Source: an uncultured Gammaproteobacteria bacterium (GTDB lineage: Bacteria > Patescibacteriota > Microgenomatia > Curtissbacterales > GWA2-41-24). Taken from it: a stretch of DNA of 64,000 nucleotides. This document shows, piece by piece, positions 12,526 through 14,383 of this stretch. Position numbers and translations under genes: made by a program. The stretch's first letter is position 1; every line of letters begins with the position of its first letter. The stretch covers positions 9,096 through 73,095 of the forward strand of contig CAYGDE010000001.1 in assembly GCA_964348615.1 (NCBI GenBank). The letters are read 5' to 3'. Below the pieces are notes generated by a model. That model worked only from the letters and a program-made list of their open reading frames with translations, made no database searches and was not told the origin of the DNA.

Positions 12526-14295
12526 GTGACAGCTGATATACTTACGCCTATGCACATTCGCAACTTTGCAATCATTGCCCACATAGACCACGGCAAATCA
12601 ACACTTGCCGACCGTATTATGGAAATTTGTGGTGCCGTAGGCGATAAGCACGACGCCCAACTTCTAGACAGTCTAGAGCTTGAACGTGAACATGGCATCA
12701 CAATCAAACTCAAAGCCATCCGTCTTAACTACCAACTACAAACTTCCAACTATATACTCAACCTCCTAGACACCCCTGGCCATGTAGATTTTTCTTATGA
12801 AGTCTCGCGTTCATTAGCGTCAGTTGAAGGTGCTGTTTTGATAGTTGATGCAACTCAAGGGGTACAGGCCCAGACGCTATCCAATTTTAATTTAGCGCTA
12901 GAGGCCGGTCTCACCATGATTCCGGTTGTCAACAAAATAGATTCCCCGCAAGCAGAACTGGCCAAAACGATTGATGAAATTAAAAACCTCGGTTTTAAAG
13001 ATGACGAGATCATAAAAGTCTCTGCAAAAACTGGAGAAAATGTTAGAAGCCTAATTGACGCCATCATCGAAAAAATTCCTCCCCCCAAATCTACAGGTAA
13101 TATACCCCAAGCGCTTATTTTTGATTCCTCCCTCGATCCGTATAAAGGGGTTATTGCAACTGTTCGTCTTTTTGGAGGTGAAATAAAAGTCTCAGACAAA
13201 ATATTTTTCCTAGCAACTGGTGCACAAGCCGAAGTCCTTCAGGTTGGCTATTTATCCCCCAAACCCACATACATAAAAAGCCTAACATCAGGGGAGCTTG
13301 GATTTATTGTTACAAATGTCAAAGACCTGCAAAAAGTCAAAGTAGGGGACACAATATCGCAACCAAAAGACCCTGCAAACCCTCTTCCAGGTTATCAAGA
13401 AGCAAAACCAGTAGTTTTCTTATCTCTTTTCCCGTCAGACACAGCAGATCTTGCAAAGCTAAAAGATGGGATCGAAAAGTTAAAATTAAACGACTCTTCC
13501 CTAAGCTTTTCTCCGGAATCGTCAACCAGCCTTGGTCAAGGATTTCGTGTTGGCTTCCTTGGCCTTTTGCATGCCCAAATCACGCAAGAGAGACTGGAAA
13601 GAGAATACAATTTAGATCTAATTGCAACATCCCCGTCTGTTAACTTCATTCAAGATGGACAAGTCATAAATAAGTCTTCAGAATTCGACCCCACTGCAAA
13701 AAATTTAGAAGAGCCTTATGCAAATGTGACAATTTTTGCACCTGAAAGGTTTTACGGAATAATTTCTAACTTAGTCCACGAAAGAAGGGGAGAAATCGGC
13801 AATATTGAAAATCTAGGGTCCTTGCAAAAAATCGAGGCAGAAATTCCGCTTTTAGAACTTTTAATTGGTTTTTACGACCAGCTTAAAAGTCTAACCTCGG
13901 GTTATGCATCCCTAGACTTCGAACTTTCAAACTATAAAAAAGCCGATCTTGTAAAGCTGGATATTTTGGTAAACCACGAACCCATAGAAGGCCTTTCGCA
14001 AGTTGTTCCCCGCGAAAAAGCCGAAGAAATTGGCAGCAAATTCACCCAAAAGTTAAAAGACGCAATCCCCAAGCAACAAATTCCAATCCCAATTCAAGCA
14101 GCAATTGGTGGCAAAATCATCGCACGCGAAACGATCGCTGGTTTTAGAAAAGACGTAACGGCAAAACTTTATGGCGGAGATGTCACCCGTAAAAATAAGT
14201 TACTGGAGAAACAGAAAAAAGGCAAAAAAAGAATGAGAAGGTTTGGAAGCGTCGATATTCCGCAAGAAGCCTTTTTAGCCGTACTAAAGATTTAA
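12526..14295 (+). CDS. lepA: elongation factor 4 (LepA); GTG at 12526 or ATG at 12550
   Basis: [33 protein letters not shown], and the C-terminal [40 protein letters not shown]. Confidence 0.95.
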   Translation: [589 protein letters not shown]

Positions 14296-14338
14296 GGTGC
14301 GCCGCGAAGTTTATCCCGAGCGAAGGCGAGGGAGATCT

Positions 14339-14383
14339 GTCGATATACCTCAGGAGGCCTTTCTTGCAGTCCTGAAAATTTAG
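14339..14383 (+). repeat. diverged second copy of the last 15 codons plus stop of lepA ([14 protein letters not shown]), following a 43-nt GC-rich spacer
   Basis: 14251-14295 and 14339-14383 encode an identical peptide but differ at 13 codons, all synonymous. Confidence 0.8.

What the first reader, a model, noticed from the sequence alone, without database searches (positions are those of the whole stretch)
14251..14383. Synonymously diverged duplicate of the lepA 3' end separated by a 43-nt GC-rich spacer
The final 45 nt of lepA (14251-14295, [14 protein letters not shown]) recur at 14339-14383 encoding the identical peptide and stop, but 13 of 15 codons differ synonymously. Between the copies lies a GC-rich 43-mer (ggtgcgccgcgaagtttatcccgagcgaaggcgagggagatct) containing TCCC-GAGCGAAGGCGA-GGGA, which shares the GAGCGAAG loop motif with the rplD insertion. 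This is the footprint expected when foreign DNA integrated at, or recombined across, the 3' end of a conserved gene and supplied a replacement gene end. It could be an integrative-element att scar or a homologous replacement from a divergent lineage. No integrase is nearby, so the element, if any, has been lost or is minimal.
Basis: seen in the sequence. Interest (0 to 1): 0.65.

Follow-up and report, generated by a model that had tools for sequence, protein, structure and literature searches.

The report
Recoded spare lepA gene end
Just after the translation-factor gene lepA, this uncultured Curtissbacteria genome keeps a second, silently re-spelled copy of the gene's last 15 codons, a leftover of foreign DNA entering at a spot where related bacteria carry small toxin-antitoxin cassettes.

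Summary
[14 protein letters not shown] at 14251-14295 recurs at 14339-14383, and 10 of 15 codons differ (11 nt), not 13. All differences are silent.

It is not an assembly artefact: three independent assemblies show the same arrangement.

It is one case of a recurrent pattern. Six of 13 Curtissbacteria lineages sampled carry a 5'-truncated second lepA end downstream of the real one. Between the copies lies a roughly 27-nt hairpin repeat (window, L004, L147; a hairpin-like spacer in L191) or a toxin-antitoxin cassette (hicBA, vapBC twice). A Verrucomicrobia MAG and a Bradyrhizobium MAG also carry duplications.

- Seven diverged pairs show 68 synonymous against 10 non-synonymous codon differences.
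- Two near-identical pairs show 1 against 5.

So in the diverged pairs, including this one, both copies evolved as working lepA ends in different lineages.

In one species, two otherwise identical strains differ only in the last 85 nt of lepA, and have unrelated DNA after the stop.

The spacer's core belongs to a hairpin family found in more than 120 viral contigs.

Best reading (about 0.4): a cargo-less relic of a small cassette integrated at the lepA 3' end. Main rival (about 0.3): homology-anchored illegitimate recombination. Which copy is native here is unresolved.

The parts
12526..14295 (+). lepA (elongation factor 4) coding sequence. Start is GTG at 12526 as called in public records, or ATG at 12550.
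   Evidence: ORF list and translation. 100% identical to P0001/P0002. Best named hits are Candidatus Curtissbacteria EF4, with Pfam GTP_EFTU, EFG_C and LepA_C.
14251..14295 (+). Copy 1: the translated last 14 codons plus TAA of lepA ([14 protein letters not shown]).
   Evidence: The peptide is nearly invariant in 120 Curtissbacteria LepA proteins. 4 of 30 nt differ from the L003 end. Codon-usage logL -15.39, 26th percentile.
14296..14313 (+). Left part of the spacer (GGTGCGCCGCGAAGTTTA): GC-rich, holds a second GCGAAG. Possibly a degenerate second hairpin unit. Origin unknown.
   Evidence: weak stem ggtg/tatc around CGCCGCGAAGTT. Unique in the window.
14314..14338 (+). Copy of a widespread roughly 27-nt hairpin repeat: stem TCCC/GGGA (14314-14317 and 14330-14333), loop GAGCGAAGGCGA (14318-14329), tail GATCT. 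One T-to-G change from the canonical loop GAGCGAAGTCGA.
   Evidence: fold. The 18-mer family is found in more than 120 viral contigs. Its stem covaries around a constant loop. Canonical flanks are GTCAT...GGGATCT. L004 and L147 carry the canonical loop at the same place.
14339..14383 (+). Copy 2: an untranslated, 5'-truncated second lepA end ([14 protein letters not shown] with TAG), in the +1 frame relative to lepA. 10 of 15 codons are re-spelled, with no amino-acid change.
   Evidence: Codon-usage logL -17.33, 5th percentile. 10 of 30 nt differ from the L003 end. tblastn finds it as the only second hit in the window.
14405..14433 (+). Promoter-like site (TTGCCT-17-TATACT) just before the downstream gene. 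It marks the resident DNA that follows copy 2.
   Evidence: The TTTTGCC motif and spacing resemble the uninterrupted relative L003: 57 nt (window) and 62 nt (L003) from stop to the DUF4389 start.
14440..15228 (+). DUF4389 membrane-protein gene, the resident right-hand neighbour. It is followed by hrcA-grpE-dnaK.
   Evidence: Pfam PF14333. Same gene order as L003.

Best explanation
The 88 nt between equivalent points of the two copies (14251-14338, or equally 14296-14383) are what remains of a small piece of foreign DNA that entered at the 3' end of lepA and carried its own lepA end.

The result is an attL/attR-like pair of direct repeats. One repeat completes the working gene. The other is a displaced, untranslated relic. 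In this genome nothing lies between them except a hairpin repeat.

**Most likely mechanism (inferred).** Site-specific integration of a small non-autonomous cassette, or of a larger element that later decayed. The recombinase would act in trans or has since been lost. The attachment site would lie within the last 11-26 codons of lepA. The inserted sequence re-creates the gene end, so the essential-like gene survives.

**Why these cases persist (inferred).** Insertions flanked by direct repeats are normally lost by recombination between the repeats. They survive when the repeats are too diverged to recombine, as in the hairpin-only cases such as this one, or when the cargo is addictive, as with toxin-antitoxin modules.

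**Shown**
- The duplication is real.
- It recurs at the same place with different cargo.
- Both copies evolved under protein-level selection.
- One species has a strain-level breakpoint inside the lepA end.

**Inferred**
- The enzyme involved.
- Which copy is native.
- The loss of cargo.
For: 1. Real and reproducible: the same arrangement appears in three assemblies.
2. Silent-only divergence: 10 synonymous and 0 non-synonymous codon differences, and none of 200,000 random-mutation simulations kept the peptide. Two copies drawn independently from the genome's codon usage would differ at 7.9 of 14 codons; 9 are observed. The copies are therefore as far apart as lepA genes of different species, where 54% of codons differ at conserved residues.
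3. Recurrence: 6 of 13 Curtissbacteria lineages have a second, 5'-truncated lepA end.
   - L004/L005: hairpin, 33-nt copy.
   - L147: hairpin plus 33-nt copy, then vapBC plus a 78-nt copy.
   - L191: hairpin-like spacer, 42-nt copy.
   - L006: hicBA plus a 57-nt copy.
   - L329-L338: vapBC in reverse orientation plus a 74-nt copy, in 10 assemblies.
   - The closest relative, L003, has the uninterrupted site.
4. Two classes of pair: seven diverged pairs total 68 synonymous against 10 non-synonymous differences, and two near-identical pairs total 1 against 5. Diverged pairs are therefore not decayed local duplications.
5. L207 is an empty-site counterpart of L006. Its single end and flank, AAAATTTAG|AAGTAGAATC, match the downstream copy of L006.
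6. Strains L339 and L344 are identical over 3161 nt apart from one mismatch. They then differ at 9 silent sites in the last 85 nt of lepA and have unrelated DNA after the stop.
7. The same footprint occurs outside the candidate phyla radiation (CPR): a ParE-like cassette with a 52-codon copy in a Verrucomicrobia MAG, and a roughly 400-nt insert in a Bradyrhizobium MAG.
8. In code-25 CPR provirus contigs, a tyrosine-integrase prophage starts about 110 nt after the lepA stop. The lepA 3' flank is therefore used by integrase-bearing elements in related bacteria.
Against: - No recombinase gene lies between or next to the repeats in any of the nine duplication events. None was found among the window ORFs checked.
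- The left edge of the downstream copy varies: 11, 14, 15, about 19, 24 and 26 codons before the stop in Curtissbacteria, and about 38 and 52 codons elsewhere. One site-specific system with a fixed core is not expected to do this.
- The 64-88 nt hairpin-only units are too small to be circular double-stranded intermediates. They must be decay products, or they moved in some other way.
- In four cases the hairpin abuts the downstream copy, and random decay does not explain that.
- In this window the translated copy looks more native than the relic. That is the opposite of the classical arrangement, although the evidence is weak (likelihood ratio about 9; lepA change-point test p = 0.118).
- The toxin genes of L006 and L147 end within 0-2 nt of the downstream copy at A-rich microhomologies. 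This fits illegitimate joining as well as it fits integration.
Confidence: 0.4

Rival explanations
1. Recombinase-independent capture of foreign DNA. A fragment from another Curtissbacteria lineage carried the lepA 3' part, its stop, and whatever followed it there: a hairpin repeat here, toxin-antitoxin genes elsewhere. It paired with the recipient through homology in the conserved lepA sequence. Its non-homologous far end was joined by microhomology inside the recipient's own lepA end. This is homology-facilitated illegitimate recombination. A mirror-image version would be anchored in the downstream genes. Joints inside the gene end are tolerated because the donor brings a complete end, so only those events, and joints after the stop, survive.
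For: - The left edges of the downstream copies are scattered over about 80 nt in Curtissbacteria.
- Junctions show only 1-5 nt of possible microhomology. Examples are TAA|AA at the toxin stops of L006 and L147, GC in L329, and possibly GATCT in the window.
- No recombinase appears in any event.
- The strain pair L339/L344 shows ordinary recombination breakpoints falling inside the last 85 nt of lepA, with the downstream DNA exchanged.
- The DNA between lepA and hrcA differs in almost every lineage: DUF4389, a 91-aa ORF, hicBA, GNAT plus an IS element, a 187-aa ORF, a SET-like gene.
- The model allows either copy to be the native one, which fits the conflicting polarity hints.
Against: - L004 and L147 are distant hosts (68% lepA DNA identity). 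Yet they have the identical hairpin and the identical junction, GAAGGGC|CA(A/G)GA, before the same Gln codon. That is unlikely for independent random joints.
- In four cases the joint lies exactly at the 3' side of a hairpin.
- Strand exchange between sequences 25-30% diverged is expected to be very inefficient (general knowledge of RecA-dependent recombination).
- To my knowledge this kind of event has rarely been documented in natural genomes.
Confidence: 0.3
2. The hairpin repeat is itself the active part. It would be a recognition hairpin for a single-strand DNA enzyme, of the kind that moves REP sequences, IS200/IS605 elements or integron cassettes. It would move together with the adjacent upstream sequence (gene end, stop, short spacer) and insert next to a matching target, so that the hairpin marks the cassette's 3' boundary.
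For: - The hairpin directly abuts the downstream copy in the window, L004, L147 and L191.
- The family has a constant 12-nt loop and a covarying 4-5 bp stem: Y/R pairing in 109 of 110 copies, and the next pair formed in 105 of 110 against 75 expected. This is typical of protein-recognised hairpins.
- It is found in contigs of 35-73% GC.
- The hairpin plus junction is identical in two distant hosts.
Against: - The three Curtissbacteria toxin-antitoxin events and the Verrucomicrobia event have no hairpin at the junction.
- Of 145 hairpin copies examined, only the lepA ones have re-spelled flanking duplicates.
- The window holds very few copies, and no HUH-type enzyme was seen.
- The junctions do not match the integron GTTRRRY core, judged by reading the sequence.
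Confidence: 0.1
3. Local tandem duplication of the gene end, by slippage or unequal exchange, followed by divergence in place. The hairpin would have inserted later into the harmless gap.
For: - Two events have almost identical repeats: L329 with 4 of 72 nt different, and L028 with 3 of 72. Duplications of the host's own sequence, or of a conspecific's, therefore do occur at this site.
- Hairpin repeats do insert into many places, including in frame into rplD.
Against: - An untranslated copy should decay at all codon positions. The two young pairs do exactly that (1 synonymous against 5 non-synonymous). The window pair has 10 against 0, and the seven diverged pairs have 68 against 10.
- None of 200,000 simulations kept the peptide.
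- Gene conversion would make the copies alike, not re-spell them.
Confidence: 0.05
4. The second copy is functional. It might be a template or variable-repeat pair of a diversity-generating retroelement. It might be a spare end used after programmed excision, splicing or ribosome hopping. It might be part of a leader peptide for the downstream gene.
For: - Copy 2 keeps a perfect reading frame and stop.
- Second copies in different hosts differ from each other mostly at silent sites.
- An open frame with a GTG start at 14297 would give a 28-residue peptide ending in the LepA tail.
- In two viral contigs the hairpin variant sits between what looks like a variable-protein gene end and an Avd-like gene. 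This reading is from translations only and is unverified.
Against: - The differences are not adenine-specific: 6 of 11 in one direction and 3 of 11 in the other, from reading.
- No reverse transcriptase is nearby.
- Copy 1 already ends in a stop and gives the full protein.
- The frame of the second copy relative to lepA is not conserved (+1 in the window and L004, +2 in L147).
- The L004 and L147 copies have an in-frame stop just upstream and no start codon.
- No Rfam family matches, and folding energy is not unusual.
Confidence: 0.03
5. Assembly artefact (two strain variants of the lepA end joined head to tail) or chance resemblance.
For: The genome comes from a metagenome, and strain variants of the lepA end do exist in a related species.
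Against: - Three assemblies give the same arrangement for this organism.
- Two different pipelines give it for L004/L005.
- Ten assemblies give the equivalent arrangement for L329-L338.
- Chance is excluded.
Confidence: 0.01

Closest known systems
attL/attR repeats of elements that integrate into the 3' end of a gene and carry a replacement end. Examples recalled from the literature: e14 and phage 21 in E. coli icd; tRNA- and tmRNA-targeting islands; ICESt1 in fda.
   Same: - A direct repeat of the gene's 3' end flanks the inserted DNA.
- The copy attached to the gene keeps it intact, and the other copy is a 5'-truncated relic.
- The repeats differ at silent sites.
- The same conserved gene is hit repeatedly in related genomes.
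   Different: - No integrase is present in or beside any of the nine events.
- The cargo is absent (here) or is only a toxin-antitoxin pair.
- Repeat length varies from 33 to about 165 nt.
- The unit here is 88 nt in total.
CIMEs (cis-mobilisable elements): attL-attR pairs left after an integrative element has lost its recombination and transfer genes. Described for the ICESt1 family in Streptococcus thermophilus (recalled, not checked here).
   Same: Two att-like repeats enclose a short sequence that encodes no enzymes, at the 3' end of a housekeeping gene.
   Different: CIMEs are kilobases long and sit beside related intact elements. No intact parent element was found for the lepA site in Curtissbacteria. 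Only a code-25 CPR prophage lies next to lepA.
Homology-facilitated illegitimate recombination during natural transformation. Shown experimentally in Acinetobacter and Streptococcus pneumoniae (recalled).
   Same: There is one homologous anchor (the lepA body). The other end is joined at short microhomologies. Foreign DNA of variable length is added next to a conserved gene.
   Different: The natural products described here keep all recipient DNA and duplicate the gene end. The same hairpin and junction recur in two distant hosts.
dif modules and integron cassettes: small recombinase-less cassettes, often toxin-antitoxin pairs, moved by a recombinase encoded elsewhere (recalled).
   Same: The cargo is tiny and dominated by toxin-antitoxin genes. 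It carries no enzyme of its own and is bounded by repeated recombination-site-like sequences.
   Different: The bounding repeats here are the coding end of lepA, not Xer sites or attC hairpins. No dif-like or GTTRRRY core is visible in the repeats, judged by reading the sequence.
In-frame palindromic insertions in genes, such as Rickettsia palindromic elements, and GC clusters or double-hairpin elements of fungal mitochondria. In Allomyces, a foreign atp6 gene end was found next to such elements (recalled).
   Same: A short GC-rich hairpin repeat sits in an AT-rich genome. It is also inserted in frame in a ribosomal-protein gene (rplD). A displaced, duplicated gene end lies next to a hairpin element.
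   Different: No endonuclease ORF is present. This hairpin family has a constant loop and occurs across phyla.

Membership tests
Integrase-mediated integrative element (attL/attR at a gene 3' end) | Direct repeat of the target gene's 3' end on both sides of the inserted DNA, with the gene kept intact | tested here: met
   Window 14251-14295 and 14339-14383. The same layout, with cargo, is seen in L006, L147, L329 and L056.
Integrase-mediated integrative element (attL/attR at a gene 3' end) | A tyrosine or serine recombinase gene inside or beside the element | tested here: not met
   There is no room in the 43-nt spacer. Ten unidentified window ORFs have no recombinase domain, and the other window ORFs were judged only by reading their translations. 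None was called in the duplication-bearing loci. An integrase next to lepA was seen only in code-25 CPR provirus contigs.
Integrase-mediated integrative element (attL/attR at a gene 3' end) | One fixed crossover core shared by independent insertions | tested here: inconclusive
   Left edges lie at 11, 11, 14, 15, about 19, 24 and 26 codons before the stop. Identity blocks of 8 nt or more fall within the VDIPQE codons in most pairs, but they are no longer than chance allows. L004 and L147 share one junction.
Integrase-mediated integrative element (attL/attR at a gene 3' end) | Occupied and empty sites within one population, or an excised circular form | not testable with these tools
   Only between-species empty sites are available (L003 for the window, L207 for L006). 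Reads were not available.
Homology-facilitated illegitimate recombination product | A donor-derived tract in the anchor gene next to the insert, and a microhomology joint at the other end | tested here: inconclusive
   The last 73 codons of window lepA are closer to L003 (0.38 versus 0.57 of codons differing), but permutation p = 0.118. Possible microhomologies of 1-5 nt can be read at the junctions.
Transposon target-site duplication | Short, identical direct repeats of fixed length made at insertion, with terminal inverted repeats on the insert | tested here: not met
   The repeats are 33-165 nt, of variable length, and 71-77% identical in most Curtissbacteria pairs. The spacer has no terminal inverted repeats.
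Diversity-generating retroelement (template/variable repeat) | Differences confined to adenines of one repeat, with a reverse transcriptase nearby | tested here: not met
   Only 6 of 11 (or 3 of 11) differences sit at adenines, from reading. No reverse transcriptase was seen among the window ORFs examined.
Widespread hairpin repeat family (stem, loop GAGCGAAGTCGA, stem) | A 12-nt constant loop flanked by a complementary 4-5 bp stem whose sequence varies between copies | tested here: met
   Window 14314-14333 is TCCC/GGGA around GAGCGAAGGCGA, one T-to-G change from the canonical loop. The family is defined from 110 distinct copies with covarying stems. Caveat: most other exact G-variant matches look like chance coding matches, with the next pair formed in only 3 of 12.
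Known structured RNA (Rfam) | A match to a curated covariance model | tested here: not met
   No hit at gathering threshold in the window. The only hit in 14230-14450 is a chance-level snoRNA match with E = 4.

The most novel reading that the evidence does not exclude
The last 11-52 codons of lepA would be a cross-phylum landing site for a class of miniature, enzyme-less cassettes: toxin-antitoxin pairs and a roughly 27-nt hairpin repeat.

These cassettes would travel with their own re-spelled copy of the gene end. Each insertion would repair the gene it interrupts and push the old end downstream.

If so, these loci record how toxin-antitoxin cassettes insert, a step that has lacked a clear sequence footprint. 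The conserved-loop hairpin next to the junction could be the recombination signal of an unrecognised single-strand DNA enzyme.
Probability: 0.15. Interest if true: 0.7.

Novelty: new member of a known kind. Interest (0 to 1): 0.45.

Why it matters
**A hot spot in hard-to-study bacteria.** Candidate phyla radiation (CPR) bacteria have tiny genomes, cannot be cultured alone, and are thought to depend on taking up foreign DNA. Direct footprints of how foreign DNA enters their chromosomes are scarce. This site gives a compact, countable one. A conserved gene end is duplicated and re-spelled each time something lands there. Events of different ages lie side by side, from near-identical repeats that are visibly decaying to fully re-spelled repeats.

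**A footprint for toxin-antitoxin movement.** The cargo is dominated by toxin-antitoxin pairs. These modules are widely regarded as mobile, but how they move is poorly documented. The junctions here could be mined at scale.

**Annotation.** The second copy is a relic and should not be called a gene. Strain-level differences in the last 85 nt of lepA can mislead marker-gene phylogenies and strain typing.

Tried and rejected
1. **Spacer as degenerate lepA codons.** I proposed that the GC-rich spacer is a degenerate continuation of the lepA copy, with GAG CGA AGG CGA GGG read as the K R M R R codons. That would have made the downstream copy an old arm joined to a young end. I dropped this when the same 18-mer turned out to be a widespread hairpin repeat.
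2. **Genome-collection scan wasted.** The patterns chosen from the LepA C-terminus were generic. They returned 80 non-CPR loci, which served only as negative controls.
3. **Downstream copies as an element-borne cluster.** They do not form a tight group. The permutation p of 0.018 is driven by a few pairs, and CTT at the Leu codon also occurs in single-copy ends.
4. **Change-point test for an imported tract in window lepA.** Not significant (p = 0.118).
5. **RNA motif.** No Rfam hit and no unusual folding energy.
6. **Literature.** No paper holds GAGCGAAGTCGA. A search on lepA, attB and integrase gave nothing relevant.
7. **Plasmid and phage record searches.** Plasmids gave only chance-level hits to the hairpin. 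Phage hits to the LepA tail were full-length host lepA genes or unannotated short records.
8. **IMG/VR provirus calls ending at a lepA stop.** About 30 calls end exactly at the stop of a full-length lepA. These prophage regions lie on the 5' side of lepA and are not relevant.
9. **attR of the code-25 CPR prophage.** A 19-nt junction pattern was found only once per contig.
10. **Closest relative.** No DNA could be fetched for the P0004 contig.
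Full report
**What is in the window**

lepA (elongation factor 4) runs on the + strand and ends with TAA at 14293-14295. Its last 15 codons, GTC GAT ATT CCG CAA GAA GCC TTT TTA GCC GTA CTA AAG ATT TAA (14251-14295), recur at 14339-14383 as GTC GAT ATA CCT CAG GAG GCC TTT CTT GCA GTC CTG AAA ATT TAG. Both encode [14 protein letters not shown].

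- Ten of the 15 codons differ (11 nt), and none changes the peptide.
- The second copy is in the +1 frame relative to lepA and is not part of a credible ORF.
- Between the copies lies the 43-nt spacer, with GC 0.63 in a window of GC 0.40.
- After copy 2 come a promoter-like site at 14405-14433 and a DUF4389 gene at 14440-15228, then hrcA-grpE-dnaK.
- A six-frame scan for repeated 8-residue peptides found no other such repeat in the 64 kb.
- None of 200,000 simulations with 11 random substitutions kept the peptide and stop.

**Not an artefact**

LepA places the organism in Candidatus Curtissbacteria, within the candidate phyla radiation (CPR). Two other assemblies of the same organism (ERZ27247828, ERZ27247820) have the identical arrangement, with a single SNP in the spacer at 14335.

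**The same footprint in relatives**

The C-terminal peptide is almost invariant in 120 Curtissbacteria LepA proteins. Silent divergence between two copies therefore measures lineage distance.

I fetched lepA 3' regions for 13 Curtissbacteria lineages. Six carry a second, 5'-truncated lepA end downstream:

| Lineage | Between the copies | Second copy |
|---|---|---|
| Window | 43-nt spacer with hairpin | [14 protein letters not shown] (45 nt) |
| L004/L005 (80% LepA identity) | 31-nt spacer with CCCTGAGCGAAGTCGAAGGG | [10 protein letters not shown] (33 nt) |
| L147, first event | The same hairpin | [10 protein letters not shown] (33 nt) |
| L147, second event | RHH/PIN (vapBC) pair | [25 protein letters not shown] (78 nt) |
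| L191 | Hairpin-like spacer | [13 protein letters not shown] (42 nt) |
| L006 | hicB-hicA | [18 protein letters not shown] (57 nt) |
| L329-L338 (ten assemblies) | Reverse-oriented PIN/RHH pair | 74-nt copy |

- No second copy was seen in L003, L106, L127, L206, L207, L208 or the P0090 species. For L127 and L206 only 1142 and 525 nt downstream were available.
- The closest relative, L003 (83% LepA identity), has the same gene order with an uninterrupted site: 62 nt from the stop to DUF4389, against 57 nt after copy 2 in the window.

**Outside Curtissbacteria**

A generic scan covered 190 lepA loci, of which 185 are not Curtissbacteria-like. It found two more cases:

- A Verrucomicrobia MAG (L056) has a ParE-like toxin pair followed by a 52-codon second lepA end.
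- A Bradyrhizobium MAG (L028) has a roughly 400-nt insert with REP-like hairpins followed by a second end that is 96% identical over the last 72 nt (3 differences).

These are documented.

**Two age classes**

- Seven diverged pairs, 71-87% identical, total 68 synonymous and 10 non-synonymous differences. Several of the latter are natural LepA variants such as E/D.
- Two near-identical pairs (L329 and L028) total 1 synonymous and 5 non-synonymous differences, all five in the downstream copy.

An untranslated copy is therefore seen to decay as expected. The re-spelled pairs cannot be decayed local duplications. Both members evolved as working lepA ends until recently, so one member of each pair comes from another lineage.

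In the window the two copies differ at 9 of 14 sense codons. Two independent draws from the genome's codon usage would differ at 7.9. Orthologous lepA genes of different Curtissbacteria species differ at about 54% of conserved-residue codons.

**A strain-level breakpoint**

In the P0090 species, contigs L339 and L344 are identical over 3161 nt of murJ and lepA apart from one mismatch. They then differ at nine silent sites in the last 85 nt of lepA.

After the stop their DNA is unrelated: GNAT plus a DDE transposase plus hrcA in one, and a 187-aa ORF in the other. No second copy was found in the GNAT allele, which was followed through to hrcA. For the other allele only about 750 nt downstream were available.

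The exchangeable region downstream of lepA therefore begins inside the gene's last 30 codons or so.

**The spacer**

The stem-loop at 14314-14333 is not thermodynamically unusual (z = -1.07; wider context z = +0.77). It matches no Rfam family.

Its sequence, however, belongs to a very widespread repeat.

- In 110 distinct copies with the loop GAGCGAAGTCGA, the third stem pair covaries (T-A 78, C-G 31, one mismatch). The next pair outward is formed in 105 of 110, against 75 expected.
- Typical flanks are GTCAT...ATC(T).
- The window copy has one T-to-G change in the loop. L004 and L147 carry the canonical form.
- The in-frame insertion in rplD (about 55183-55245) is two units of the same architecture.

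The shared 8-mer by itself is not significant.

Of 145 hairpin copies examined, only those at lepA have re-spelled flanking repeats. No paper in the library holds the loop sequence.

I had briefly read the spacer as degenerate lepA codons (K R M R R). I dropped that once the family was found.

**Which copy is native**

This is unresolved.

- In the window, copy 1 is closer to L003 (4 versus 10 differences in 30 nt) and fits local codon usage better (26th versus 5th percentile). That is a likelihood ratio of roughly 9 for copy 1 being native.
- A change-point test on lepA was not significant (p = 0.118).
- In L006 the opposite is suggested. The downstream copy and its flank, AAAATTTAG|AAGTAGAATC, match the single end of L207. 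The downstream copies of L004 and L006 differ at only 2 of 30 nt, while their translated ends differ at 9.

**Mechanism**

*Shown:* insertion next to or into the lepA end recurs; it leaves a displaced gene end; one end is foreign in the re-spelled cases.

*Inferred:* the enzyme.

I put about 0.4 on small integrative cassettes, or decayed integrative elements, that use a recombinase acting in trans.

- The architecture is the classical one for elements that target gene 3' ends.
- Toxin-antitoxin pairs are plausible last survivors of decayed elements, because deleting them would kill the cell (inference).
- In code-25 CPR provirus contigs, a 331-aa tyrosine integrase, a terminase and a portal gene begin about 110 nt after the lepA stop. 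Integrase-bearing elements do therefore use this flank.

Against this reading:

- No recombinase appears in any of the nine events.
- The left edges vary.
- The hairpin-only units are very small.

I put about 0.3 on homology-anchored illegitimate recombination with foreign lepA-bearing DNA.

- It explains the scattered edges, the A-rich microhomologies at the toxin stops, the absence of enzymes and the ambiguous polarity.
- It does not explain the identical hairpin and junction in two hosts whose lepA DNA is only 68% identical.

A hairpin-driven single-strand mechanism gets about 0.1.

A survivorship argument (inference) fits all three readings. Repeats flanking an insert are lost by recombination unless they are too diverged, as in every hairpin-only case, or the cargo is addictive.

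**Comparison and verdict**

This works like an att scar at a conserved gene end. It is a new site and host group for a known kind of footprint. It fails one defining test of integrase-mediated elements (no recombinase) and is inconclusive on another (a fixed core).

It is not a transposon target duplication, a diversity-generating retroelement pair, a known RNA or an artefact.

Interest is moderate. The single instance in this window is a small relic. The recurrent, cross-phylum hot spot with toxin-antitoxin cargo and a conserved-loop hairpin at the junction is worth a systematic survey.

Noticed in passing
window 55183-55245 (inside rplD, 55103-55876 +): Two hairpin units of the same architecture as the lepA spacer are inserted in frame in the N-terminal extension of ribosomal protein L4. 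They are GTCATTGCGAGCGAAGAGAAGCAATC and GTCATTCCCGCAAAAGCGGGAATCC. The second is a very stable hairpin (DNA fold -9.9 kcal/mol, z = -6.2).
   Followed up: partly
L209-L328 (IMG/VR contigs); window 14314-14338: A roughly 27-nt hairpin repeat with constant loop GAGCGAAGTCGA and a covarying 4-5 bp stem occurs in more than 120 viral contigs of 35-73% GC. It is sometimes found in tandem or as inverted pairs. I found no Rfam family and no paper containing the loop sequence. What moves it or what it does is unknown.
   Followed up: partly
L339 versus L344 (also L346-L355), lepA 3' end: Two strains of one Curtissbacteria species (GCA_001774845-like) are identical over 3161 nt apart from one mismatch. 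They then differ at 9 silent sites in the last 85 nt of lepA and carry unrelated genes after the stop: GNAT plus a DDE transposase in one, a 187-aa ORF in the other.
   Followed up: yes
L056 1896-2527; L028 1083-1607: lepA-end duplications also occur outside CPR. A Verrucomicrobia MAG has a ParE-like toxin pair between a full lepA and a 52-codon second end. A Bradyrhizobium MAG has a roughly 400-nt hairpin-bearing insert and a decaying second end, with what looks like a MazEF-like pair just downstream (read from translations only, not checked).
   Followed up: partly
L362-L368, L416-L418 (e.g. L363 348-2923): These provirus contigs come from bacteria that read UGA as Gly (CY-UGA-GD in LepA, code 25, Gracilibacteria/SR1-like). 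lepA ends at 1817 with an unusual tail, VPTETFVKMITREN. A 331-aa tyrosine integrase lies on the opposite strand at 1928-2923, followed by terminase and portal genes. This is a prophage sitting at the lepA 3' flank. Its other end was not recovered.
   Followed up: partly
window 14296-14440: The lepA reading frame stays open from the TAA at 14293-14295 through both the spacer and copy 2 into the DUF4389 gene, which is in the same frame. Read-through of one stop would fuse the two proteins. This is probably coincidence: 48 codons without a stop.
   Followed up: no
L006 3655-3662 and L329 3265-3272: Two different toxin-antitoxin cassettes in different hosts both begin with ATCATTAA immediately after the stop of the translated lepA copy. 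The sequences then diverge. This is either a shared left-end motif or coincidence.
   Followed up: no
L285 about 8925 and L320 about 2912 (IMG/VR contigs): The G-variant of the hairpin (CCCGAGCGAAGGCGAGGG, as in the window) sits between the end of a gene whose C-terminus looks like a variable protein of a diversity-generating retroelement and a gene that looks like an Avd-type four-helix-bundle protein. This is judged from translations only and was not verified.
   Followed up: no
P0001-P0120 (LepA homologues): Curtissbacteria LepA lengths range from 577 to 664 residues although the C-terminal 45 residues are nearly invariant. Some proteins replace the conserved [10 protein letters not shown] stretch with Gly/Arg-rich sequence, for example SQDGRRGGQGK in P0111. 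Internal in-frame insertions like the one in rplD are a possible cause.
   Followed up: no
L379-L415 (IMG/VR provirus calls): About 30 provirus predictions end exactly at the stop codon of a full-length lepA. Many have an E. coli-like LepA tail, so they are probably enterobacterial. The prophage regions lie on the 5' side of lepA, so this is unrelated to the 3' end hot spot. It may reflect how provirus boundaries are trimmed.
   Followed up: partly
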